Sequence record: NC_049830.1
Origin: Escherichia phage PGN590
Length of the DNA stretch: 49,043 bases
Reading direction: 5' to 3' (one strand)
Shown here: positions 6,755 through 43,104 of the stretch, in pieces
Layout: each line of letters begins with the position of its first letter
How positions within the stretch are numbered: position 1 is the stretch's first letter
Notes under the pieces: generated by a model
The model's database searches: none
What the model was told of the DNA's origin: nothing
What the model saw: only the letters and a program-made list of their open reading frames with translations
Made by a program: the position numbers and the translations under genes

Positions 6755-6774
6755 TTTTAACAAAAAGTGCTATT
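6755..6774 (-). promoter_or_regulatory. intergenic 20-bp repeat, promoter-like
   Basis: overlaps TAG of lipoprotein gene; GC hairpin in spacer; CATAAT downstream. Confidence 0.55.
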
Positions 6775-7030
6775 TAATATCTGTTGTGACTTGTTGGTGC
6801 ATTACGTTTTTGCCGCTGTTGTATGTGCTATCCGTTGCGCCATTACAATTGGTGTAATAGATTGCTCGACCGTTGTCATAGAATCGGTACGCAGTGCATC
6901 CATCCACAGTAAACAGGCGACCGACTTTAAAATCTGACTCCACTCCTACGACAACCGTTGATTCCGATGCCTTCTCGCATCCGGTCAGGGTAGCAATTGC
7001 AATCAAAACTCCAATTAATGCCTTACTCAT
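6770..7030 (-). CDS. lipoprotein
   Basis: signal peptide plus lipobox LIAIATLTGC; four further Cys in mature part. Confidence 0.55.
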   Translation of the reverse strand: MSKALIGVLIAIATLTGCEKASESTVVVGVESDFKVGRLFTVDGCTAYRFYDNGRAIYYTNCNGATDSTYNSGKNVMHQQVTTDIK

Positions 7031-7508
7031 CCTCTTTCCCTCCAGCGAGTTTACGAATCATGTCCTGGTAGCGCCCTATAGCCTCACACGCTCCAGCAAG
7101 TTTGTCGCCTTCCATGTCTGTGATATTTGGCATTACGTTTACCAGGTGATTAAGAATTTTGCTTACCGCCTTCTCTGCGCGCTTTTCTGCGATCTCGTCG
7201 ATTTCTTCACCAGTCAAAACGCGAGGCTTGCTTTTGGCTTCGGTGAGCGTAAACACAAAGCCATCACCCTCATCAGTCACCTTTCGCTTAATGCTGATCA
7301 CTCCTTTTTGCTTTACTTCTGGCACACGGTTGACAACCTGGCGCATGTACGATGCCGTAATTGCTTCGCCGTTCTCCACATTAGCGCACAAAAAAAGTGC
7401 TGGCATGAATACATTATTACGCTCACCACTACCAATTGCCGCGCCCAAGTCGCGAAGCATATCGCAAAACTCACTACGCGACATGGTGATAATATTTTCT
7501 TCGCTCAT
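7023..7508 (-). CDS. hypothetical protein
   Basis: ORF track; first gene transcribed leftwards from control region. Confidence 0.5.
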   Translation of the reverse strand: MSEENIITMSRSEFCDMLRDLGAAIGSGERNNVFMPALFLCANVENGEAITASYMRQVVNRVPEVKQKGVISIKRKVTDEGDGFVFTLTEAKSKPRVLTGEEIDEIAEKRAEKAVSKILNHLVNVMPNITDMEGDKLAGACEAIGRYQDMIRKLAGGKEDE

Positions 7509-7829
7509 AGCATCTACTCCTTTTGTTGCGTTTAAACTGGATGCATTATTGCCTTGCCTCTCCTACATGTCAATATATTTTGTGTTTTAACAACAATTTT
7601 TGGCATGTGGCGCGTTTAAAGATAACAAAATGCTTCAGTTAAGTCATTGGTTTTTATGTTAAAAATGACCCTGTTGACTTGGTTGACGGAGGATTGCTTC
7701 ATACCCATATATATACATACAAAAATCACCACGCATCATCATTGATTAAAAAATATACAATCACACATACATATCACCACAAACAATACCAATCCACCAC
7801 ATACCCATAGAACAAGCACAACAGTAAAT

Positions 7830-7870
7830 AACAAATATAAATACATATATAACTAACTTATTGATTTTAT
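7830..7870. repeat. conserved block shared by both strand-switch control regions (copy 1)
   Basis: AACAAATATAAATACATATATAACTAACTTATTGATTTTAT; about 33/40 identical to 28024-28063; flanked by CA-rich tracts. Confidence 0.6.
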
Positions 7871-7922
7871 GGGTATATATATAAATTTTATTTTGTTCTT
7901 TTTGTTGATGAACGCCAATTCT

Positions 7923-7957
7923 GTTATCTCAAAGTGCGGAGGCTTATTTGAGATAAC
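7923..7957. repeat. perfect 11-bp inverted repeat with 13-nt loop
   Basis: GTTATCTCAAA ... TTTGAGATAAC in non-coding control region. Confidence 0.6.
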
Positions 7958-8107
7958 GCGGGGAACAGAAATAACAGTTGTGCGCGCCAGGATTGCAGGA
8001 AAGGATGCAAGAGGGCCACATTTCTCTATCCCCTCCACACAAAAAGTTAATCACTTGATTAAAATTGATCAAACTCAAAGTCTCACAATCCAGGTGATCG
8101 CGAATGA

Positions 8108-8150
8108 TTTATTCCTGTTATTCCTGATTAATGGAATAGATGGAATAATG
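8108..8150. promoter_or_regulatory. dyad-symmetric operator-like element
   Basis: TTATTCCTG TTATTCCTG attaat GGAATAGAT GGAATAATG; two direct 9-mers mirrored around ATTAAT, 12 bp upstream of promoter-like repeat. Confidence 0.5.
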
Positions 8151-8161
8151 ACCAGTCAGCA

Positions 8162-8180
8162 AATAGCACTTTTTGTTAAA
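8162..8180 (+). promoter_or_regulatory. intergenic repeat, promoter-like (first rightward promoter)
   Basis: TACATT 22 nt after TTGTTA; drives 8244 gene; dyad element just upstream. Confidence 0.55.
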
Positions 8181-8243
8181 CCTGAATTGCCATGATCGGG
8201 TACATTAGACACATCGAAACGAGATACCCATCAGGAGATAGCA

Positions 8244-8516
8244 ATGAACATCAGCAAAACCACTTTCAACTTTGCAAAGCGTCACGGTCTGGATCTGACT
8301 GTTGAAGATTTTGGCGATGTTCTGCAACTATGCATTTGGGAAGCGGATAACGATTGCGAGTGGCTTTGCTCTTATCGCATCAATTACCATTGCTTAACCT
8401 GGCACGGCAATATCTATCTGCCGCAAGAAGTGAAAGAGGAATTGCCAGCGACCATCAATAATGAAGTGTTTTTGCGCAAAGTCCTGAAGTTTATTGCTGA
8501 GGAGATCAAGAAATGA
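8244..8516 (+). CDS. hypothetical protein
   Basis: AGGAGA RBS; first rightward gene after promoter-like repeat at 8162. Confidence 0.5.
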   Translation: MNISKTTFNFAKRHGLDLTVEDFGDVLQLCIWEADNDCEWLCSYRINYHCLTWHGNIYLPQEVKEELPATINNEVFLRKVLKFIAEEIKK

Positions 8517-8758
8517 TTGATGAAGTGGATTTTGAACTTGCAGAGGCCCAGGTAAGGGCCAAAAAGATGGGATTGCGGATCCTGAAGAAAACAGTCGAGT
8601 TCCCGTCGATGCCGTTCGCATCGTTTCATAAAGTGACGGTATTCAGTAGAAAACGCGAGTGTAATGCGCTAATCCCTGTTGGTGATGATAAGCGCATGGC
8701 TAAATTCATTAACGAGTCCTGTGATGTTCTGATGGCCGTTAAACACGATCAACAATGA
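8513..8758 (+). CDS. hypothetical protein
   Basis: ATG overlaps upstream stop (ATGA). Confidence 0.5.
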   Translation: MIDEVDFELAEAQVRAKKMGLRILKKTVEFPSMPFASFHKVTVFSRKRECNALIPVGDDKRMAKFINESCDVLMAVKHDQQ

Positions 8759-8771
8759 AGGGGAAATAAAG

Positions 8772-9038
8772 ATGGCACGAATCAATGCACCTATTCCAGT
8801 AAAACGCAAAGCACGACTGCTTAACAATGGATGTTACGCCATGCGGCCTGCATTTAAGGATCGCACCTTTCCGGTTATCGTCAACGTGTTGTACGTAAGC
8901 CGTAGCGGGAATCTGGCCTTTGTTAGCGGTGAAGATCTGGCGGCGATTGGATTCTATGGCGGTATTTACAGCGAACCGCTCGGATTCTGGATTGTAAATC
9001 CGTCAACTGGAGAACGCGAAATCGAACTCCTGGACTAA
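8772..9038 (+). CDS. hypothetical protein
   Basis: GAAGGGGAAA RBS; stop overlaps repeat motif. Confidence 0.5.
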   Translation: MARINAPIPVKRKARLLNNGCYAMRPAFKDRTFPVIVNVLYVSRSGNLAFVSGEDLAAIGFYGGIYSEPLGFWIVNPSTGEREIELLD

Positions 9039-9056
9039 TAGCACTTTTTGTTAAAA
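9037..9056 (+). promoter_or_regulatory. intergenic 20-bp repeat, promoter-like
   Basis: overlaps TAA of 8772-9038; TACATT 22 nt downstream; conserved leader. Confidence 0.55.
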
Positions 9057-9114
9057 CTCAATCCTCGTGTTCCTGTACATTACACACATCAACAACGAAT
9101 GCGAGGATTTGAAA

Positions 9115-9267
9115 ATGGTTACTCTGATTACCTGGGAACACGAAAACAGCCAGCCGGAAGCGCGCGAGTTTGAAACTGTAGCGGCATGTTATAACCTTGC
9201 GAAAAATGGTGGCTTCTATAAGGCGCAAATCGTTAACGAATTTGGAGTTGTTGACTATGAGTTCTAA
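9115..9267 (+). CDS. small hypothetical protein (50 aa)
   Basis: start set to ATG 9115 after conserved leader and GAGGA RBS. Confidence 0.45.
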   Translation: MVTLITWEHENSQPEAREFETVAACYNLAKNGGFYKAQIVNEFGVVDYEF

Positions 9268-9547
9268 ATTTTACAGCTACACCGATACCGTGGATTTTGA
9301 GGGGATACAATTGCCCCTCCCTAATATATACCGCTATATCACGCGTGACGAACGCGGATATATTGAAGCGTGGCGCTCATATCCAGTGCGGGATCTTGAA
9401 TTTGGCGGCTTCCGCTCTCTTGAGGGTGAGTTGCCGATCTGCTTCGGTCATCAAAGCGGTGAAAATCTTCCGGTTGTTGCGCGGCAGTATCGCAGACACA
9501 AGATCACAAGAGCACTTATCTCTTTAACTGGATCTGTTGTTGAATAG
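9257..9547 (+). CDS. hypothetical protein
   Basis: ATG 9257 overlapping upstream gene end; stop TAG inside repeat motif. Confidence 0.45.
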   Translation: MSSKFYSYTDTVDFEGIQLPLPNIYRYITRDERGYIEAWRSYPVRDLEFGGFRSLEGELPICFGHQSGENLPVVARQYRRHKITRALISLTGSVVE

Positions 9548-9562
9548 CACTTTTTGTTAAAA
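9543..9562 (+). promoter_or_regulatory. intergenic 20-bp repeat, promoter-like
   Basis: overlaps TAG of 9257-9547; TATATT 22 nt downstream; conserved leader. Confidence 0.55.
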
Positions 9563-9618
9563 ACGGTATGCGCCTGAATGGTATATTACATCCATCAACA
9601 ACGAACGAGGATTTAAAA

Positions 9619-9813
9619 ATGGAAAATCAAGTTGATGTTAAAGTTTTACAGCGTGACACCACTCACGAGAAAGGAATCTTTAAGAAAGGCGCTATCATCA
9701 CAATTGATATTGAGGATATGGTTGCGTACCACTCAGGGCTAACTTGGAACGTTGTTAAACATGGCAATGCTTTCAAACTGCGTGGATTCAATACTATTAT
9801 GGAGGTTGTGTAA
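9619..9813 (+). CDS. small hypothetical protein
   Basis: ATG 9619 after conserved leader CATCAACAACGAACGAGGATTTAAAA. Confidence 0.45.
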   Translation: MENQVDVKVLQRDTTHEKGIFKKGAIITIDIEDMVAYHSGLTWNVVKHGNAFKLRGFNTIMEVV

Positions 9814-10094
9814 TGGCCTACAAAAACAGCGATTTTAAAAACTCAGCCGAAACAATCAATGCGGCGCTAATTAAACAACGCGCTTATAGATTCTGGCTTG
9901 ATTATCATAATCTAAGGAAAAAGATTGATAATCTTATCAAGAATGGTAACGCGTCATGTTCTAACATTACGGTTTGGCGCAATATGAACGCGCAGTACGG
10001 CAAGGGAAAAATCCGTTTATTTGGTGGATCTGTTGAAGCGTATGTGTTTAGCGGAACAAAAGTTGTAAGTTTTAACGTTGTTGGCATTAATTAG
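9813..10094 (+). CDS. hypothetical protein
   Basis: ATG overlaps upstream stop (TAATG). Confidence 0.45.
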   Translation: MAYKNSDFKNSAETINAALIKQRAYRFWLDYHNLRKKIDNLIKNGNASCSNITVWRNMNAQYGKGKIRLFGGSVEAYVFSGTKVVSFNVVGIN

Positions 10095-10195
10095 ATGAAG
10101 CTAATAATATTCCATAATGCCTGGATGGTAGCTGTTGCAAATGATCATTATGGCGGAGACGGCAAGCGAGCAAAGCGCCACAGCTATTTCAACTG

Positions 10196-10214
10196 ATAGC
10201 ACGAATTGCTAAAC
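10196..10214 (+). promoter_or_regulatory. divergent repeat copy (ATAGCACGAATTGCTAAAC), promoter-like
   Basis: CATAGT 22 nt after TTGCTA; upstream of 10269 gene. Confidence 0.45.
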
Positions 10215-10268
10215 AATATTTCTAAAACCTGGCATAGTTACAACACCAAATATAATGAGGATTGCATA

Positions 10269-10496
10269 ATGAAAGCTAAAGTAACTAACATCATGCACAC
10301 TGTTGATGCACATCACCGCGTGGCAGTGAAAATGGATAAATCTTGCGGAATCAACCAGTTAACAATAACAAGCGGTAAAGGTGTGTTTGTTGTTGGATCA
10401 CATCCAGGTAGTAAAATCCGCAAATATACTCGCGAAGAATTGATTAAACTGCTGGAAGAAAACAGCATGTTTATTGAAAGCTGGAAGGCTATCTAA
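10269..10496 (+). CDS. hypothetical protein
   Basis: ATG 10269 after GAGGATTGCATA; followed by hairpin 10506-10523. Confidence 0.45.
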   Translation: MKAKVTNIMHTVDAHHRVAVKMDKSCGINQLTITSGKGVFVVGSHPGSKIRKYTREELIKLLEENSMFIESWKAI

Positions 10497-10505
10497 TTAA
10501 TAAAC

Positions 10506-10526
10506 GGGAGGTTTTCGCCTCCCTTT
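10506..10526 (+). terminator. putative intrinsic terminator (weak U-tract)
   Basis: GGGAGG-ttttcg-CCTCCC then TTT. Confidence 0.4.
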
Positions 10527-10546
10527 AAATAAAGGCGATAATAACG

Positions 10547-10657
10547 ATGAAATTTCTTGATATTTTATTTGGTGTGATGATTGGCCTTGCTGGTCTTTTA
10601 GTTGTCACTGCTGGTCTTGCTATTATTCTGATTGTTATCAAGGAGTTTATGAAATGA
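10547..10657 (+). CDS. small hydrophobic peptide (36 aa, single TM), not in ORF track
   Basis: MKFLDILFGVMIGLAGLLVVTAGLAIILIVIKEFMK; stop overlaps next start (ATGAAATGA). Confidence 0.35.
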   Translation: MKFLDILFGVMIGLAGLLVVTAGLAIILIVIKEFMK

Positions 10658-10878
10658 GTCAGGATGGATTTTTTGAGAGACTGCAAAAAGCGGAAGATGC
10701 TGGACTGAATAAAGAGGCCGCTCTTGAAGTTGCATATAAGATCAGGACACTTGATGATGCGTTGGGTGAAATGGATATGGAACATGAATGCGGTGCTGCA
10801 TTTGCAGATCCAACGATGATTGTTAATGATTGCGGCTGCAATTTTGATCCTAACTGTCCGCGATGCTTTCCGTTTTGA
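10654..10878 (+). CDS. hypothetical Cys-rich protein
   Basis: C-terminal CGCNFDPNCPRC cluster; start coupled to upstream peptide. Confidence 0.45.
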   Translation: MSQDGFFERLQKAEDAGLNKEAALEVAYKIRTLDDALGEMDMEHECGAAFADPTMIVNDCGCNFDPNCPRCFPF

Positions 10879-20952: not shown

Positions 20953-21426
20953 ATGAAAGAAAAGCGGATCGCGGTATCAACTGGCAAAATTGACAAACGC
21001 ACAATCAATGGCAATAACGGAACTCGACGTGGTAAAGATAAGAAAAAGCGCAAGCGCCCTACAGGATACTATGTTTTAAAAGATGAAGTGCGCGCAGGAC
21101 TAAAAGCACGGCTTGACATTCTTATTGAGTATTACGGAAGCGTGTCAGCAATGGCAAAGCGTCTTAACGTTAGCCAGCAAACTGTAAATCAGTGGCGTGT
21201 TCGAGGTATGATTTCAGCCGCTGGCGCTCAAAAGGTGCATAACGATTACAAGAAATATGGTTGTCAAGGCTATCGCGCTTCATTCTGCCGTCCAGATCTA
21301 CGATTTGATTCCAATGGCAAACCGCTCACAAAGAGATGTGATAAGCGTGAAATGTTGCGAGTAGTAAGAATGTCAGATTATGAACCTGGCGGATTCCTGT
21401 ATAAACCTGAAAGCACTAATTGCTAA
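20953..21426 (+). CDS. HTH DNA-binding protein (putative regulator)
   Basis: basic N-terminus, HTH-like SVSAMAKRLNVSQQTVNQW. Confidence 0.45.
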   Translation: MKEKRIAVSTGKIDKRTINGNNGTRRGKDKKKRKRPTGYYVLKDEVRAGLKARLDILIEYYGSVSAMAKRLNVSQQTVNQWRVRGMISAAGAQKVHNDYKKYGCQGYRASFCRPDLRFDSNGKPLTKRCDKREMLRVVRMSDYEPGGFLYKPESTNC

Positions 21427-28172: not shown

Positions 28173-28191
28173 AATAGCACTTTTTGCTAAA
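28173..28191 (+). promoter_or_regulatory. intergenic repeat (variant TTGCTAAA), promoter-like
   Basis: in control region 2; TATAGT at 28211-28216; drives lipoprotein gene. Confidence 0.5.
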
Positions 28192-28247
28192 CGCACGCCG
28201 CAAGATCGTGTATAGTTGCAACTAACAATAACTAAGGAGAAAACAAG

Positions 28248-28475
28248 ATGAAAAAATTAATCGCCGTTTTGATTGCAGCCGTAACCCTGACTGGTTGCGC
28301 AAATATGCCTAAGCGTGAATGCACGGCTATTTATGAAAATAGCGGTATGCAGTATTCAGTTGCTATTTTTGGAGTAAAACGAGTTGGCGACCGCACTCTT
28401 GTTAAGGCTGGCTATCCGTTTAATTTTCAGTGGGTAAGCATTGATAACTTTAAAAACGCTGATTGCAGTATGTAA
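28248..28475 (+). CDS. small lipoprotein, Cor/Llp-like superinfection-exclusion candidate
   Basis: AAGGAGA RBS; lipobox AAVTLTGC; 75 aa with two distal Cys; adjacent to tail genes. Confidence 0.5.
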   Translation: MKKLIAVLIAAVTLTGCANMPKRECTAIYENSGMQYSVAIFGVKRVGDRTLVKAGYPFNFQWVSIDNFKNADCSM

Positions 28476-38873: not shown

Positions 38874-38892
38874 ATAGCACTTTTTGTTAAAA
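38874..38892 (+). promoter_or_regulatory. repeat copy oriented antisense to the late genes
   Basis: ATAGCACTTTTTGTTAAAA on plus strand between major tail and G genes; TATCAT 22 nt downstream. Confidence 0.4.
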
Positions 38893-38931
38893 GAATTGAT
38901 TATGAATCGTGTATCATGATTGTACAGTAAC

Positions 38932-38954
38932 AAAAAAAGGGGCGCAACGCCCCT
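38932..38954 (-). terminator. intrinsic terminator after major tail gene
   Basis: AGGGGCG-caa-CGCCCCT plus seven U on minus strand. Confidence 0.75.
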
Positions 38955-38959
38955 TGTGA

Positions 38960-39622
38960 TTATGCTACTTGAGAAGGTAGGAAGGTGAATCGACCTTTCA
39001 GGGATACAGAAAGGGAAACAGTTTCCATTTCGTTAACGGTCGTTTGTGGGATCTCGTTAAACGAAAGCACACCAGCCCAGCAACGCATCTCTTTTGCTTT
39101 TGGTACATACATGCGAAGAGCGGTTACTTCTCCTGATTCATCTGCTGAACGCAATAGCGGATAGATCGCGTTATCGTATTCGTGCGCAAAAGTGTAGGTA
39201 AGAGAAACGGCGCTCTTATATGTAGGTAACTGCTGTTCTTGATCGTCTGCCAAACACTGATAAGTGTAGTATTGCTGTTCGCCGCCGTCCTGCGACAAAT
39301 CTTGAACGCAAGGAATCTCAGTCCATGCATCAATTTTTGCAAAAGATGCAGTACCGCCAGACGGGAAAACGTTCTGATCAGTAGTATCTACACCTTCAAG
39401 AGTCACGCTTGTTTCTTCGCCGTTAGCCTTTACACGCATAACACGATCAATCAGCTTACCCCAAGAAGACGCAGTGATGATAACATAATCACCTTTCTTG
39501 TACGAAGTGCCGCCAGATGCAACGGTGAATACAGGATCTTTAGCGTTTGATACTGCCGTTGCTTGGATTTCGCTGCCGCGATTGCTCTCAACGAAAATTT
39601 GCGATCCATTTGGTAAATGCAT
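38960..39622 (-). CDS. major tail protein
   Basis: AAAGGAG RBS; position immediately upstream of chaperone genes; strong terminator after stop. Confidence 0.6.
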   Translation of the reverse strand: MHLPNGSQIFVESNRGSEIQATAVSNAKDPVFTVASGGTSYKKGDYVIITASSWGKLIDRVMRVKANGEETSVTLEGVDTTDQNVFPSGGTASFAKIDAWTEIPCVQDLSQDGGEQQYYTYQCLADDQEQQLPTYKSAVSLTYTFAHEYDNAIYPLLRSADESGEVTALRMYVPKAKEMRCWAGVLSFNEIPQTTVNEMETVSLSVSLKGRFTFLPSQVA

Positions 39623-39626
39623 AATT

Positions 39627-40025
39627 TTACTCCTTTGTTTCAATTCGAACATAAAATCTTACAGGGAGAAGCCAACCGCTTTCACTCTTGAGCGGCTTGT
39701 GAACTCTTGCACCCTCATATATATAACCATGCTCCAACATTTTACCATCGTAAAAGAATTGCGCAATCTCTTTAGCGAGAACGCGCGGCCTGTCAGTTCC
39801 GTAACCTGGTGGAAACACAATGCCAACCTGAATCATTCCGATATAGGAAACGCATTTTCGATCCAATGACAAGTATTCTGTATCAACTTCGGCATAGTCA
39901 AACTTCAACCACGGCGAACCGTCACCAGGTGGCGTAAACTCTACGTTTTCATAAGCGATCTTGAATCTGCTCTCGTATTCAGTCGCCAGCGCCTTACGCG
40001 CTGATAGCATTAATTCATAGTGCAT
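39627..40025 (-). CDS. tail terminator/completion protein (by position)
   Basis: synteny between head-tail joining genes and major tail gene. Confidence 0.45.
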   Translation of the reverse strand: MHYELMLSARKALATEYESRFKIAYENVEFTPPGDGSPWLKFDYAEVDTEYLSLDRKCVSYIGMIQVGIVFPPGYGTDRPRVLAKEIAQFFYDGKMLEHGYIYEGARVHKPLKSESGWLLPVRFYVRIETKE

Positions 40026-41611: not shown

Positions 41612-42586
41612 TTAACCTGTTTTTTTCAAGCCAGTAATAAGCACTAGCGTAAACGGACGGTAAATCGTCAGGCCAGTGCATTTTGAAGTGCACGGAACTT
41701 TGAAATGCAGATCTTTTGGTTGCGCCGGAAGCATGTTAAATGCTTCTGGAATTTCGATAGACATGTTCATCGGGTCTTTCTCATATACCAGGCAACCTTT
41801 CGTTCCAGTGCCATCAATATCCTCAAGCTCTGCGATTGAGTCGAAGGTTATTCCGCTGTTTTGTTTCTGGAAGTATTCCAGATAACTTTCAGTGGTGTTT
41901 TCCATTCGAACAGAAAGAACCTTGCGCATAGACGGCGGAATCAGGATATTGGTTGCGCGGTGCTGACCATTGGTGATGGTCTGAATGGTTTCAATAGCCT
42001 TTTCCAGTTCATCAGATGCTGCCTGCGGGAACTTAGTGTTTTCATCAGCACTTAACCAGCCAGTTGACACGATCTTTGTCAGGTTAGGATGTTCAAACAC
42101 CGAAAGAATCTTATGCGGCTTTGAACCCTTAAACACCAGGCGGTTAACTTCCTGATCATGAGCGTTTTGCGCTGCGTTTGCCTTGCGAGTCGAAAGGCTC
42201 TTACCAGTGCGCTGACCAGCCTTGATTTCGTCAATGGAGATCAAGAACGCGTTACCCAGGCGGAACACCTTGCCAAACTCGCTTGACATTAAAGCGTCAA
42301 CAGTTGGCAGATCGTCGGTGTAATCAGCGATAATTTTTGCGTAACCAACCCTGTCAAACATCTGATATTCAAAAGTCTTATCAGTATCAGAAAGCTCATT
42401 AGTTACAGGGAACACACGAAGCGCTGAACCTGCCGGATACTCTTTCTCGTAAGCAGTTGAGCGGATCTTGTGAAGCTCTTGCGCCGTCCAGATACCCATA
42501 TCAGAAGCATCACCCTTAACGCCGCGAGTAGCCAGATAGCTAGAAACAATATCCGCATCTAGCTGATCAAATTTTTCTTTTTCCAT
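41612..42586 (-). CDS. major capsid protein
   Basis: 324 aa; GGAGGAAGAA RBS; position between scaffold/decoration genes and head-tail genes. Confidence 0.8.
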   Translation of the reverse strand: MEKEKFDQLDADIVSSYLATRGVKGDASDMGIWTAQELHKIRSTAYEKEYPAGSALRVFPVTNELSDTDKTFEYQMFDRVGYAKIIADYTDDLPTVDALMSSEFGKVFRLGNAFLISIDEIKAGQRTGKSLSTRKANAAQNAHDQEVNRLVFKGSKPHKILSVFEHPNLTKIVSTGWLSADENTKFPQAASDELEKAIETIQTITNGQHRATNILIPPSMRKVLSVRMENTTESYLEYFQKQNSGITFDSIAELEDIDGTGTKGCLVYEKDPMNMSIEIPEAFNMLPAQPKDLHFKVPCTSKCTGLTIYRPFTLVLITGLKKTG

Positions 42587-42632: not shown

Positions 42633-42650
42633 ATAGCATTTTTTGTTAAA
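42633..42650 (+). promoter_or_regulatory. repeat copy oriented antisense to the late genes
   Basis: ATAGCATTTTTTGTTAAA on plus strand upstream of capsid gene; weak TATGAG 22 nt downstream. Confidence 0.35.
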
Positions 42651-42669
42651 CGTGCAACCTAATTTTGTG

Positions 42670-43104
42670 TTATGAGTCAATGCTTACCCCGACAATATAT
42701 GAATCATGATCAACCTTTACATGTTCGCCAGTAAAGATCCAACCGCTCAGTAAGTCGCCTTCACTGTATGCCGCATCTCCATCTTGCGTTACAAATACTT
42801 TATCTCCATATTCTGGCGCTTCGCTCTCAGAAGTTAAGCACCAAACAATACCTCGACTAACAACACTAATTGGATCACCATCCTCATATATGCACGAGTC
42901 CAGCGGCCTTACTGCCACGCCAATAACAAGATCCCCATTAATACTGGCTATTTTGTATCCATTTGTTATATGTGATAGTCGAACAATCTTACCTGGCGCA
43001 ATAAATTCATCTCCGCACACGAAAGATCCGTTAATCACCATTATTGAAGAATCGACCATGCACCCTGGCGACTCAACGCCAACAATGACTGAATAATCAC
43101 TCAT
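42670..43104 (-). CDS. head structural/decoration-like protein (paralogue of 43151-43663)
   Basis: start set to ATG 43102-43104 (MSDYSV, GGAG RBS); shares GxVWxL...DGxxxxxSGxIxxxWIxTG pattern with neighbour. Confidence 0.45.
   Translation of the reverse strand: MSDYSVIVGVESPGCMVDSSIMVINGSFVCGDEFIAPGKIVRLSHITNGYKIASINGDLVIGVAVRPLDSCIYEDGDPISVVSRGIVWCLTSESEAPEYGDKVFVTQDGDAAYSEGDLLSGWIFTGEHVKVDHDSYIVGVSIDS

What the first reader, a model, noticed from the sequence alone, without database searches (positions are those of the whole stretch)
8244..10496. Array of eight tandem small genes, most with their own promoter-like unit
Eight ORFs of 50-96 aa follow each other on the plus strand; several are preceded by their own repeat/-10/leader unit (8162, 9037, 9543, 10196) rather than sharing one polycistronic signal. 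None has recognisable motifs. An early, heavily promoted array of tiny proteins is where host-takeover and anti-defence factors usually sit in virulent phages.
Basis: inference. Interest (0 to 1): 0.5.

Follow-up and report, generated by a model that had tools for sequence, protein, structure and literature searches.

The report
Promoter-studded small-gene array, T1-like phage
This is a real, dispensable-looking block of nine tiny genes in a T1-like coliphage, cut into four short transcription units, and its repeated promoter element (a T1-family repeat reported but never explained) looks exactly like the binding site and promoter layout used by the host stress activators MarA, SoxS and Rob.

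Summary
The window is a Hanrivervirus-like Drexlerviridae (T1-like) phage. At 8244-10496 it carries nine (not eight) conserved plus-strand genes under purifying selection. They form four units (g1-g3, g4-g5, g6-g8, g9), each behind a repeat/-10/leader unit at 8163, 9038, 9544 and 10196, and end at a terminator (10501-10527).

"No recognisable motifs" is wrong for two genes. g6 belongs to Pfam PF25180, the family of Gp54 of phage Bas11, a non-essential trigger of the CapRelSJ46 defence protein. g4 is DUF7170. The other genes are family-restricted ORFans; g1 models as an RWD-like binding fold.

The repeat is not special to the array. It is the genome-wide T1-family "DR" element (19 copies here, 18 in T1, 14 in Klebsiella phage KP36), described in 2024 as unexplained. 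I find that it:
- matches the published mar/sox/rob box consensus exactly;
- points the same way as the E. coli class II promoters checked;
- lies 34-35 nt from the -10, as in micF, sodA, nfo and fumC;
- has no in-register -35.

Published Bas11 data show the same 75-nt unit drives Gp54 in uninfected cells. Cassette gain and loss between relatives breaks inside these units. Early timing, activator dependence and an anti-defence role remain inferred.

The parts
8163..8206 (+). Promoter unit P1: box ATAGCACTTTTTGTTAAACC (8163-8182), an 18-nt spacer, then the -10 hexamer TACATT (8201-8206). It is followed by a CA-rich leader and a Shine-Dalgarno sequence upstream of g1.
   Evidence: The box matches the marbox consensus gcannwwntgnnaaa exactly. 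The G of GCAC lies 35 nt upstream of the -10.
8244..8516 (+). g1, 90 aa, first gene of unit 1. It is conserved across Drexlerviridae genera (71% identity in Bas11).
8513..8758 (+). g2, 81 aa. Its start overlaps the g1 stop (ATGA).
   Evidence: No Pfam or PHROG match. dN/dS 0.08-0.19.
8772..9038 (+). g3, 88 aa, fast-evolving. Its stop codon abuts the P2 box.
   Evidence: PHROG 9595 (C-terminal half of a 162-aa profile), E 3.5e-16. 47% identical to part of T1 ST71, which sits in T1's other small-gene array. dN/dS 0.24-0.72.
9038..9081 (+). Promoter unit P2: box ATAGCACTTTTTGTTAAAAC (9038-9057), an 18-nt spacer, then the -10 hexamer TACATT (9076-9081).
   Evidence: The P2-type spacer sits directly upstream of the g6 homologue in Bas05, which lacks g4-g5.
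9115..9267 (+). g4, 50 aa, acidic, DUF7170.
   Evidence: Pfam PF23776, E 2.8e-28. PHROG 4653. In Bas11 the homologue (74%) lies on the opposite strand in the leftward array, again just downstream of a box.
9257..9547 (+). g5, 96 aa, overlaps g4 by 11 nt. g4-g5 together with one promoter unit form an indel cassette that is absent from slyngel, Fulano1 and Bas05.
   Evidence: PHROG 1972, E 4.1e-15. Only 13 clusters in 1.84 billion representative proteins. Cassette absence.
9544..9587 (+). Promoter unit P3: box ATAGCACTTTTTGTTAAAAA (9544-9563; the TAG inside the box is the g5 stop codon), an 18-nt spacer, then the -10 hexamer TATATT (9582-9587) preceded by TGG.
   Evidence: It is the positional equivalent of the experimentally used 'native promoter' of Bas11 gene 54.
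9619..9813 (+). g6, 64 aa, a member of the Gp54 family (the family of the CapRelSJ46 trigger protein).
   Evidence: Pfam PF25180, E 1.7e-36, 124 bits against a cut-off of 27. PDB 9axb/9erv Gp54, E 6.4e-13. Found in 212 phage records. It has V7 and A25 where Bas11 Gp54 has A7 and I25.
9813..10094 (+). g7, 93 aa, basic, a narrow ORFan.
   Evidence: Only 12 homologues, all at least 67% identical. No Pfam or PHROG family. dN/dS 0.40-0.42. The AF2 model has pLDDT 46 and is unusable.
10095..10196 (+). g8, 33 aa.
   Evidence: PHROG 32259, E 1.4e-20. Annotated in Bas07, Fulano1 and Bas05.
10196..10238 (+). Promoter unit P4, the 'GAA' variant: box ATAGCACGAATTGCTAAACA (10196-10215), then the -10 hexamer CATAGT (10233-10238), 34 nt from the G of GCAC.
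   Evidence: The same GAA class occurs in TLS and in T1 and KP36.
10269..10496 (+). g9, 75 aa, a monocistronic unit. It is conserved as far as T1 (42%).
   Evidence: PHROG 4344, E 1.5e-33. The full-length homologues are all 75 aa. dN/dS 0.07. Some records annotate the TTG-extended 96-aa ORF as 'polyribonucleotide nucleotidyltransferase'; Pfam does not support this.
10501..10527 (+). Intrinsic-terminator-like hairpin (GGGAGG-UUUUCG-CCUCCC followed by UUUAAAU) that closes the array.
   Evidence: Terminator scan. RNA fold -13.1 kcal/mol, z-score -2.2.

Best explanation
The region is an accessory small-gene array of a T1-like (Drexlerviridae, Hanrivervirus-like) phage.

Layout. Nine small proteins are made from four short, translationally coupled units: g1-g2-g3, g4-g5, g6-g7-g8 and g9. 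No terminator lies between the units, so the four promoters should add up along the array until the hairpin at 10501-10527.

Promoter unit. Each unit starts with the same cassette of about 75 nt:
- a 20-bp box, ATAGCAC-nnn-TTG-n-TAAAA;
- an 18-nt spacer;
- a -10 hexamer;
- a CA-rich leader with GAGGA;
- the ATG.

Most likely mechanism. The box is a class II mar/sox/rob box. A monomer of a host MarA-family activator binds GCAC (about -47 to -44) and TAAA (about -36 to -33). The most plausible activator is the constitutively abundant Rob; MarA or SoxS would act under stress. The activator takes the place of the missing -35 contact and recruits sigma70 RNA polymerase through alpha-CTD and sigma region 4, as at E. 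coli micF. The genes can therefore be read by unmodified host polymerase from the start of infection.

Evolution. The conserved promoter cassettes also serve as patches of homology. Gene cassettes are gained, lost and moved by crossovers inside them, as with the T4 PeSL elements.

Proteins. They are non-enzymatic binders that probably act on host or defence components. g6 is the Gp54-family beta-barrel, which at least one defence protein (CapRelSJ46) has learned to sense.

Shown:
- the genes are real, conserved and under purifying selection;
- the units are a significant, family-wide repeat;
- sequence, orientation and spacing are identical to known class II marbox promoters;
- there is no in-register -35;
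- the unit has promoter activity in uninfected cells (literature, Bas11);
- recombination breakpoints lie inside the units;
- g6 is a member of the Gp54 family.

Inferred:
- binding and activation by Rob, MarA or SoxS;
- early timing;
- a host-directed or anti-defence role for the proteins.
For: Taxonomy and conservation:
- 93% identity to Hanrivervirus phages, with the same nine CDSs annotated.

Coding:
- dN/dS is well below 1 for all genes.

Repeat and consensus:
- The 17-mer occurs 16 times against 0.38 expected.
- The published marbox consensus gcannwwntgnnaaa (PMC12052159) matches exactly 22 times against 1.8 +/- 1.4 expected. 19 of these are the co-oriented boxes.
- T1 has 20 matches against 0.8 expected, and KP36 has 14 against 0.84.

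Geometry:
- The -10 starts 35 nt (15 units) or 34 nt (4 units) after the G of GCAC.
- The same distance is 35 in E. coli micF, sodA and nfo, and 34 in fumC.
- The micF box ACAGCACTGAATGTCAAAAC is 15/20 identical to the phage box. The cryo-EM complex places G at -47 and A at -45, with Rob occluding sigma region 4 from the -35 (PMC9178005).
- Class II is defined as a forward box overlapping the -35. The phage boxes point the same way as micF, sodA, nfo and fumC.
- In 30 units from the window and T1, the hexamer in -35 register matches TTGACA at only 0.7-2.2 of 6 positions for 16-18-nt spacers. 13 of 30 have TG at -15/-14.
- The generic sigma70 scan misses P1-P3.

Function:
- The Bas11 'native promoter' fragment begins exactly at TAGCACTTTTTGTTAAAACC (primer TZ-58) and expresses Gp54-FLAG in uninfected MG1655. 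Escape mutations just upstream of gene 54 lower expression.
- Rob is constitutively expressed at a high level.
- tblastn finds no MarA-like protein in the window.

Association with non-structural genes:
- In T1 the structural block 8396-29601 has no co-oriented box, while the small-gene, replication and methylase blocks have many.

Modularity:
- slyngel, Fulano1 and Bas05 lack g4-g5 plus one promoter unit.
- slyngel keeps the P3-type spacer and Bas05 keeps the P2-type spacer upstream of g6.
- The g4 homologue is inverted into the other array in Bas11, and the g3 homologue is in T1's other array.

Proteins:
- g6.
- The region is dispensable in Bas11, where escape clones carry deletions of gene 54 and its neighbours.
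- The g1 fold is RWD-like, a binding module.
Against: - No binding, footprint, start-site or time-course data exist for any Drexlerviridae promoter in the searchable literature.
- The Bas11 promoter test used a multicopy plasmid. The positions of the escape mutations are not given in the text or tables I could read.
- Rob is largely sequestered and inactive without inducers, so it may not give strong activation in unstressed cells.
- The phage boxes are far more uniform than host marboxes: ATA and TTG are invariant. That could point to a more specific binder.
- The phage encodes a Cro/YdaS-like HTH protein (20953-21426), and the box has partial dyad symmetry (TAGCA-N5-TG(C/T)TA).
- Eight of the nine proteins have no functional evidence at all.
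- Gp54 is known only as a trigger, not as an inhibitor, and g6 lacks the two residues needed to activate CapRelSJ46.
Confidence: 0.6

Rival explanations
1. The box is an operator for a phage-encoded regulator, for example the Cro/YdaS-like HTH protein at 20953-21426 (the T1 ST23 'transcriptional regulator' equivalent). It would then be a 'stoperator' or switch site that shuts off or re-times these units. Basal promoter activity would come from the -10 and RNA polymerase alone, and the resemblance to marboxes would be coincidental.
For: The TLS genome paper raised stoperator and enhancer ideas for this repeat. The box has partial dyad symmetry, which is perfect in the TAGCA-N5-TGCTA variants. 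A phage HTH protein exists (T1 and KP36 annotations). The boxes are more uniform than host marboxes.
Against: The unit is active in uninfected cells without any phage protein. All invariant box positions coincide with the specified positions of the marbox consensus, and the variable positions with its N positions. The spacing to the -10 is identical to the base with four host class II promoters. That precision is not expected of an unrelated operator. A repressor role later in infection is not excluded and could coexist with activator binding.
Confidence: 0.15
2. The box is read directly by sigma70 RNA polymerase, as a displaced -35 (TTGnTA) and/or an UP-element-like A/T tract contacted by alpha-CTD. 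No activator protein would be involved.
For: TTG is invariant. The T-type box is A/T-rich (CTTTTTGTTAAAA) and lies at about -49 to -33, overlapping where proximal UP subsites lie (position from established knowledge). 13 of 30 units have an extended -10 TG. The unit is active in uninfected cells. The TLS authors mention UP elements.
Against: TTGnTA lies 22 bp from the -10, outside the working spacer range, and in-register -35 matches are near random. The most conserved block, ATAGCAC, is not explained by an UP element or a -35. The GAA-type box is not an A/T tract.
Confidence: 0.2
3. The small proteins are not host-takeover or anti-defence factors. They would be accessory parts of the phage's own replication, recombination or regulation machinery, which the array adjoins (Dcm methylase and helicase downstream).
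For: The array is continuous with the genes for a Dcm-like methylase and a helicase. g1, g9 and g11 are conserved across genera under strong purifying selection. None matches a known anti-defence family. Gp54 is not toxic to the host.
Against: Gene 54 and its neighbours can be deleted in Bas11 with the phage still plaquing. Content varies by whole cassettes even within a genus. g3 and g7 evolve fast. One member is directly bound by a host immune sensor.
Confidence: 0.3

Closest known systems
21-nt direct repeat ('DR') of phage TLS, also noted in T1, Rtp and Rogue1 (German, Misra, Kropinski and co-workers, Phage 2024; PMC11447400)
   Same: Same element. The consensus is aaATAGCACnnnTTGnTAAAA, with TTT, GAA and AAA sub-classes. 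[quoted passage not shown] In the array the distances are 73-81 nt.
   Different: That paper left the function open (stoperator, enhancer site or UP element) and did not connect the repeat with a -10 at a fixed distance or with the marbox. The present window has 19 copies and is from another genus.
E. coli class II mar/sox/rob promoters (micF, fumC, sodA, nfo; Rob-micF transcription activation complex, PMC9178005; marbox definition, PMC12052159)
   Same: The 15-nt consensus matches exactly. The orientation is the same as in the four E. coli promoters. The box overlaps the -35 position. The distance from the G of GCAC to the -10 is 34-35 nt. There is no usable -35.
   Different: Host boxes are degenerate, single and stress-regulated. 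The phage carries 14-20 near-identical, consensus-grade copies controlling most non-structural transcription units. Binding by MarA, SoxS or Rob has not been shown.
Gp54 of phage Bas11 (Pfam PF25180; PDB 9axb, 9erv; Zhang et al., Nature 2024, PMC11578894)
   Same: g6 is a full-length homologue (about 52% identity) in the same genomic position, behind the same promoter unit.
   Different: g6 has V7 and A25. In Bas11 Gp54 the A7V and I25V substitutions each largely abolish CapRelSJ46 activation, and homologues from SECphi27, Bas5, Bas8 and Bas10 do not trigger it. g6 is therefore probably not a CapRelSJ46 trigger. The function that benefits the phage is unknown for the whole family.
PeSL (promoter-early stem-loop) mobile regulatory cassettes of T4-type phages (PMC2839356, PMC4122927)
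   Same: A short conserved promoter-containing motif flanks small ORFan genes in variable regions, and indels between close relatives break inside the motif. Many DR units elsewhere in these genomes also carry a hairpin, which the T1 record annotates as a terminator.
   Different: The sequence is unrelated and the phage family is different. The PeSL promoter is an ordinary T4 early sigma70 promoter, whereas here the -35 is replaced by a marbox-like site. The three TTT-type units inside this array have no obvious stem-loop.
T4 middle promoters (MotA box plus -10; sigma appropriation)
   Same: The architecture is the same: a good -10 with the -35 replaced by a conserved activator box (established knowledge).
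   Different: T4 supplies its own activators (MotA and AsiA). This window has no MarA-like gene, and the unit works without phage proteins.

Membership tests
Drexlerviridae DR repeat (TLS/T1 type) | Consensus aaATAGCACnnnTTGnTAAAA with TTT, GAA or AAA middle classes | tested here: met
   P1-P3 are the TTT class and P4 is the GAA class. 19 copies in the window match TAGCAYNNNTTGNWAAA with at most 1 mismatch, against 0.66 expected.
Drexlerviridae DR repeat (TLS/T1 type) | Intergenic, co-oriented with the downstream gene, about 76 nt upstream of the start codon | tested here: met
   The distance from box start to ATG is 81, 77, 75 and 73 nt for P1-P4. All four are on the + strand, as are the genes.
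Class II mar/sox/rob (marbox/robbox) promoter | Match to the marbox consensus (gcannwwntgnnaaa; the older form AYnGCACnnWnnRYYAAAY is quoted from memory) | tested here: met
   All four array boxes match the 15-mer exactly. There are 22 exact matches in the window against 1.8 expected. P2 matches 13 of the 14 specified positions of the older 19-mer.
Class II mar/sox/rob (marbox/robbox) promoter | Forward orientation, with the box overlapping the -35 position (centre between -36 and -55) | tested here: met
   GCAC is distal and TAAA proximal, as in micF, sodA, nfo and fumC. With the -10 at -12 to -7 the 15-mer spans -47 to -33.
Class II mar/sox/rob (marbox/robbox) promoter | Fixed spacing between the box and the -10, as in known members | tested here: met
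   The distance from G of GCA to the -10 is 35 nt (P1-P3) and 34 nt (P4). In E. coli it is 35 for micF, sodA and nfo, and 34 for fumC.
Class II mar/sox/rob (marbox/robbox) promoter | Binding of MarA, SoxS or Rob to the box | not testable with these tools
   Needs EMSA, footprinting or ChIP. No such data were found in the literature.
Class II mar/sox/rob (marbox/robbox) promoter | Transcription depends on, or is stimulated by, the activator | not testable with these tools
   The only evidence is indirect: the unit is active in uninfected E. coli, which contains Rob.
Gp54 family (Pfam PF25180), for g6 | Full-length match above the Pfam gathering score | tested here: met
   124.2 bits against a cut-off of 27, covering residues 1-64 of 64. 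PDB Gp54, E 6.4e-13.
Gp54 family (Pfam PF25180), for g6 | Residues required for CapRelSJ46 activation (A7 and I25 of the Bas11 protein) | tested here: not met
   g6 has V7 and A25 (alignment). A7V and I25V each largely abolish activation. g6 is therefore a family member but probably not a CapRelSJ46 trigger.
PeSL-type mobile promoter cassettes (works like, not a member) | Indel or replacement breakpoints between related phages fall inside the conserved promoter motif | tested here: met
   The g4-g5 cassette is absent from slyngel, Fulano1 and Bas05, and the junctions retain either the P3-type or the P2-type spacer.
PeSL-type mobile promoter cassettes (works like, not a member) | Composite promoter plus stem-loop/terminator | tested here: inconclusive
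   GC-rich hairpins lie in or around the spacer or -10 of many DR units elsewhere (for example 6773, 17395 and 18415; T1 terminators at 38973, 39998 and 41980). None is obvious in P1-P3.
Known anti-defence or host-takeover proteins | Sequence or fold similarity to a characterised inhibitor | tested here: not met
   No Pfam or PHROG functional family for g1-g5 or g7-g9. No PDB sequence hit except Gp54. The g1 fold gives only generic RWD-like matches. No dedicated anti-defence library was available.

The most novel reading that the evidence does not exclude
T1-family phages have handed over -35 recognition at essentially all of their non-structural promoters, including the four in this array, to the host's MarA/SoxS/Rob stress activators. 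They do this by carrying 14-20 consensus-grade class II marboxes per genome. Phage early gene expression would then depend on, and be tuned by, the host's Rob/Mar/Sox state (bile salts, antibiotics, oxidative stress). The same portable marbox-promoter cassettes would drive shuffling of accessory genes.
Probability: 0.5. Interest if true: 0.8.

Novelty: new variant of a known kind. Interest (0 to 1): 0.6.

Why it matters
The gene array itself is an ordinary feature of virulent phages, and it is already present, unannotated, in hundreds of database records. What matters is the promoter.

The T1-family repeat was listed in 2024 as unexplained. Reading it as a class II mar/sox/rob promoter gives a concrete mechanism that can be tested in a week. 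The tests are rob/marA/soxS mutants, box point mutants and gel shifts with purified Rob.

If the reading is correct, it would be a case of a virulent phage family wiring most of its early programme to a host stress regulon, which would:
- link phage T1-type infection efficiency to bile, antibiotics and oxidative stress;
- explain why standard sigma70 predictors find almost no promoters in these genomes;
- supply compact host-activated promoter parts.

The analysis also places the Gp54 immune-trigger gene in a defined, mobile transcription unit. It points to g1, g3, g7 and g9 as the next candidates for host-interaction screens.

Tried and rejected
- Rfam scan of 7400-10700: no RNA family.
- Generic sigma70 scan: it does not see P1-P3. 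It proposes CTGGCA-16-TATAAT at 10229-10256 for g9. I rejected this because its start site would fall inside or after the Shine-Dalgarno sequence.
- Literal searches for the motif string: no relevant paper.
- 'marbox' with 'bacteriophage', and MarA/SoxS/Rob with T1-like terms: nothing relevant.
- Phage-encoded MarA homologue: none found. The best tblastn hit has E 0.12 over 27 aa.
- g7 'putative homing endonuclease' (Bas07 annotation): not supported. There is no family match, only 12 close homologues, and the AF2 model has pLDDT 46, so no fold search was run.
- g7 weak ADP-ribosyltransferase hit (E 0.032, below the cut-off) and g3 weak SAM/YdaT hits: dismissed.
- g9 'polyribonucleotide nucleotidyltransferase' (annotation of the TTG-extended ORF in some records): not supported.
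- g5 exhaustive HMMER search: 13 small unannotated clusters and no larger annotated relatives.
- g1 fold search: only generic RWD-like matches and uncharacterised phage proteins, so no function could be assigned.
- ORF 7869-8195 upstream of the array (annotated as a CDS in relatives): rejected as a gene because substitutions are evenly spread over codon positions.
- Timing data for Gp54 in the Zhang et al. paper: none.
- The exact positions of the Bas11 promoter escape mutations could not be recovered from the text or tables.

Full report
**What the window is.** The 2.5 kb around the finding is 93% identical to Escherichia phages vB_EcoS_G29-2, herni and JakobBernoulli (Bas07) and to Shigella phage pSf-1. 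Weaker matches extend to 234 phage records. Bas07 is classified as Drexlerviridae; Tempevirinae; Hanrivervirus. The window is therefore a T1-like siphovirus genome. The array sits between a 735-nt non-coding gap, beyond which a leftward array of small genes runs on the minus strand, and the genes for a Dcm-like methylase and a helicase.

**Checking the observation: genes.** All eight ORFs exist on the + strand. Using Shine-Dalgarno sequences and homologue lengths, the genes are:

| Gene | Coordinates | Length (aa) |
|---|---|---|
| g1 | 8244-8516 | 90 |
| g2 | 8513-8758 | 81 |
| g3 | 8772-9038 | 88 |
| g4 | 9115-9267 | 50 |
| g5 | 9257-9547 | 96 |
| g6 | 9619-9813 | 64 |
| g7 | 9813-10094 | 93 |
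| g9 | 10269-10496 | 75 |

- A ninth gene, g8 (10095-10196, 33 aa), was missed. It has its own PHROG family and is annotated in relatives.
- Within units the genes overlap or abut (ATGA, an 11-nt overlap, TAATG, TAGATG), which indicates translational coupling.
- Against the Bas07 and slyngel orthologues, dN/dS is 0.03-0.24 for g1, g2, g4, g5, g6, g8, g9 and g11. It is 0.40-0.42 for g7 and 0.24-0.72 for g3. All are coding, and g3 and g7 evolve fast.
- The 108-aa ORF at 7869-8195, annotated just upstream in relatives, shows no codon-position bias and is probably not a gene.

**Checking the observation: promoter-like units.**
- The repeats at 8162, 9037 and 9543 are a 54-nt family.
- The core 17-mer TAGCACTTTTTGTTAAA occurs 16 times in the window within 3 mismatches, against 0.38 expected. 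Most copies point the same way as the genes downstream of them; the two exceptions, at 38874 and 42633, are listed under side observations.
- The unit at 10196 is a variant, TAGCACGAATTGCTAAA, which also occurs at 2553 on the minus strand.
- Each box is followed after a fixed distance by a -10-like hexamer: TACATT, TACATT, TATATT and CATAGT for the four array units.
- A CA-rich leader with GAGGA then precedes the ATG. The ATG lies 73-81 nt from the start of the box.
- A hairpin at 10501-10527 (-13.1 kcal/mol) closes the array.
- The array therefore consists of four units: P1:g1-g3, P2:g4-g5, P3:g6-g8 and P4:g9.

**The repeat is known but unexplained.**
- The 2024 re-annotation of phage TLS reports a 21-nt direct repeat with consensus aaATAGCACnnnTTGnTAAAA and TTT, GAA and AAA sub-classes. 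There are 21 copies, in the direction of transcription, about 76 nt upstream of start codons.
- The repeat is also seen in T1, Rtp and Rogue1.
- The authors could find only three sigma70-like promoters in TLS. They left the repeat's role open: stoperator, enhancer site or UP element (PMC11447400).
- I confirmed the element directly in T1 (20 consensus matches, 18 of them with the ATAGCA prefix) and in Klebsiella phage KP36 (14).
- IMG/VR contigs with several copies are mostly about 46-53 kb long, consistent with this family.

**What the unit looks like.**
- The box matches the published marbox definition 5'-gcannwwntgnnaaa-3' at every specified position (PMC12052159).
- Exact matches number 22 in the window against 1.8 +/- 1.4 expected, 20 against 0.8 in T1, and 14 against 0.84 in KP36.
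- Every invariant block of the phage box (ATAGCAC, TG, TAAA) falls on a specified marbox position. The positions that vary between box classes fall on N or W positions.
- The distance from the G of GCAC to the first base of the -10 is 35 nt in 15 window units and 34 nt in 4.
- I measured the same distance in E. coli K-12 promoters that I recall from the literature as class II members of the regulon. It is 35 in micF, 35 in sodA, 35 in nfo and 34 in fumC.
- The micF box (ACAGCACTGAATGTCAAAAC, then 18 nt, then TAGAAT) is 15/20 identical to the phage box. In the cryo-EM Rob-RNAP-micF complex, Rob contacts G at -47 and A at -45, the CAAA site overlaps the -35, and Rob occludes sigma region 4 from the -35 (PMC9178005).
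- With the phage -10 placed at -12 to -7, the phage GCAC falls at -47 to -44.
- Class II is defined as a forward-oriented box overlapping the -35. The phage boxes point the same way as the four E. coli promoters.
- The E. coli mar operon's own marbox, read on the reverse strand (ATGCCACGTTTTGCTAAATC), shares the 14-mer CACGTTTTGCTAAA with a KP36 box.
- In 30 units from the window and T1, the hexamer in -35 register matches TTGACA at only 0.7-2.2 of 6 positions for 16-18-nt spacers. The conserved TTGnTA lies 22 bp from the -10, too far to act as a -35.
- The generic sigma70 scan accordingly misses P1-P3.

**Functional evidence from the literature.**
- In Bas11, from a different genus, the same box lies directly upstream of gene 54: TGATAGCACTTTTTGTTAAAACC...TATCAT...ATG.
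- Zhang et al. [quoted passage not shown]
- They expressed Gp54-FLAG from 'its native promoter' on pBR322 in uninfected MG1655.
- Their forward primer TZ-58 begins the phage-derived part exactly at TAGCACTTTTTGTTAAAACCAGTCAGATGC.
- The 75-nt unit is thus sufficient for expression with host factors alone. This argues against an obligatory phage activator.
- It fits a host activator, and Rob is constitutively expressed at a high level.
- tblastn finds no MarA-like protein in the window.
- I found no paper connecting marboxes or MarA/SoxS/Rob with T1-like phages.

**Caveats on the marbox reading.**
- It rests on sequence, orientation and spacing only.
- Rob is largely sequestered without inducers.
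- The boxes are more uniform than host marboxes.
- The box has partial dyad symmetry, and the phage encodes a Cro/YdaS-like HTH protein at 20953-21426 that could also use these sites.
- I put activator (Rob/MarA/SoxS) dependence at about 0.5-0.55, and promoter function of the units at about 0.85.

**Timing.** There are no transcript data.
- By association, boxes precede the small-gene arrays and the methylase, helicase, primase-region, lysis-side and cor-like genes.
- None is co-oriented with the large minus-strand block at 25-49 kb. I take this block to be structural from ORF sizes and synteny with T1.
- In the annotated T1 record, the structural block 8396-29601 has only two boxes, and both are antisense.
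- 'Early' or 'non-late' is therefore plausible (about 0.65) but not shown.

**The proteins.**
- g6 is a full-length member of Pfam PF25180, 'phage antiviral trigger protein Gp54' (E 1.7e-36). It matches the solved Gp54 structure (9axb/9erv) at E 6.4e-13, and the family occurs in 212 phage records.
- Gp54 of Bas11 is a 66-aa beta-barrel. It binds the antitoxin domain of CapRelSJ46 directly and activates it. It is not toxic alone and is dispensable: escape clones delete gene 54 and its neighbours. Its authors suggest it may inhibit another defence.
- g6 has V7 and A25 where A7 and I25 are needed in the Bas11 protein. Homologues from SECphi27, Bas5, Bas8 and Bas10 do not trigger CapRelSJ46. g6 is therefore probably not a trigger for that sensor.
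- g4 is DUF7170.
- g2 and g7 have no PHROG family. g7 has 12 close homologues and g9 has 8. An exhaustive search finds 13 clusters for g5.

**Modularity.**
- slyngel, Fulano1 and Bas05 go directly from g3 to g6. They lack g4-g5 and one promoter unit.
- The alignment of the junctions is informative. slyngel and Fulano1 keep a P3-type spacer upstream of g6. Bas05 keeps the P2-type spacer, which is otherwise upstream of g4. The two spacers are unrelated to each other. The crossovers therefore lay in the conserved box or in the conserved leader.
- In Bas11 the g4 homologue sits, again just downstream of a box, on the opposite strand in the leftward array.
- The g3 homologue is the C-terminal part of ST71 in T1's other array.
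- Bas11's rightward array is reduced to the g1, g6, g9 and g11 homologues.
- This is how the composite promoter-terminator PeSL motifs shuffle ORFans in T4-type phages (PMC2839356, PMC4122927), but with an unrelated sequence.

**Verdict.**
The promoters are credible and the array is accessory and mobile, with one member at the phage-immunity interface. Early timing and anti-defence function remain inference.
- The array alone is a new member of a well-known kind.
- Identifying the long-unexplained T1-family repeat as a class II mar/sox/rob-type promoter appears new and is directly testable. On that basis I rate the finding moderately high.

**Side observations.**
- Two boxes (38874 and 42633, + strand) point against the structural operon. 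T1 has the same arrangement. The short transcribed stretch after 38874, up to a bidirectional terminator, is conserved with T1.
- Many DR units outside the array carry GC-rich hairpins in the spacer or flanking the -10. The T1 record annotates these as terminators.
- A near-consensus sigma70 promoter (TTGACA-17-AATAAT) heads the leftward array at 7573-7545.
- Bas07 carries GCGC instead of GCAC in the box upstream of its Gp54 homologue.

Noticed in passing
window 7509-8243: A 735-nt gap lies between the two divergent small-gene arrays. In 60-nt blocks, 85-98% of columns are identical across the window, Bas07 and slyngel. It contains AT-rich repeats (ATATATATACAT) and inverted repeats. The ORF at 7869-8195, annotated as a CDS in relatives, shows no codon-position bias (6/7/5 differences), so it is probably not a gene. 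The gap may be an origin or a control region. No Rfam hit.
   Followed up: partly
window 7545-7573 (- strand): A near-consensus sigma70 promoter (TTGACA, 17 nt, AATAAT; 11 of 12 matches) lies directly upstream of the first leftward gene (7023-7508). The leftward array thus starts with a canonical promoter, whereas the rightward array starts with a marbox-type unit.
   Followed up: no
window 38874-38950 and 42633-42680 (+ strand); T1 locus L005 18850 and 15086 (- strand): Two box/-10 units point against the structural operon. The arrangement is conserved in T1. After 38874 the transcribed stretch (gattgtacag...ggggcgcaacgcccc) is conserved with T1 and ends at a bidirectional terminator. This suggests a short antisense or small RNA of about 40 nt, or interference with late transcription.
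   Followed up: partly
window boxes at 6773, 17395, 18415, 2570, 3872, 5105 (- strand); T1 L005 38953, 39976, 41956: Many DR units outside the array have a GC-rich hairpin, often with a GNRA-like loop. It sits either inside the 18-nt spacer or with arms flanking the -10. The T1 record annotates these as rho-independent terminators (38973-39001, 39998-40024, 41980-42007). They look like overlapping terminator-promoter modules. P1-P3 of the array lack them.
   Followed up: partly
L001 (Bas07) about 7447-7466: In Bas07 the box upstream of the Gp54 homologue reads ATAGCGCTTTTTG. The A of GCAC, the base contacted by Rob W36 in the micF complex, is replaced by G. This may be a natural down-mutation of the promoter of this immune-trigger gene.
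   Followed up: no
window 20953-21426 (+): A 157-aa protein has a Cro/YdaS-like HTH domain (Pfam E 5e-07 and 1e-05, just below the cut-offs). It lies upstream of the primase-side genes and is the counterpart of the 'transcriptional regulator' annotated in T1 and KP36. A marbox-like site (AAAGCACTAATTGCTAAAAA, 21410) lies at its 3' end. It is a candidate regulator of the late switch or of the boxes.
   Followed up: partly
window 10547-10878: After the terminator come a 36-aa single-pass membrane peptide (g10) and a 74-aa acidic protein with a C-terminal Cys cluster, CGCNFDPNCPRC (g11). g11 is conserved as far as T1 (54%), with dN/dS 0.04-0.06. No box precedes them.
   Followed up: no
one search hit list (GenBank MG0656xx records): Twenty records labelled 'Campylobacter phage', with host Campylobacter jejuni, are 86-87% identical to this E. 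coli/Shigella phage region over 92% of its length. The host labels are doubtful.
   Followed up: no
window 28174-28475 (+): A 75-aa gene beginning MKKLIAVLIAAVT lies on the + strand inside the minus-strand late region, at the position of T1's Cor superinfection-exclusion gene. It has its own box/-10 unit (TATAGT at 34 nt), consistent with these units serving genes needed early.
   Followed up: no
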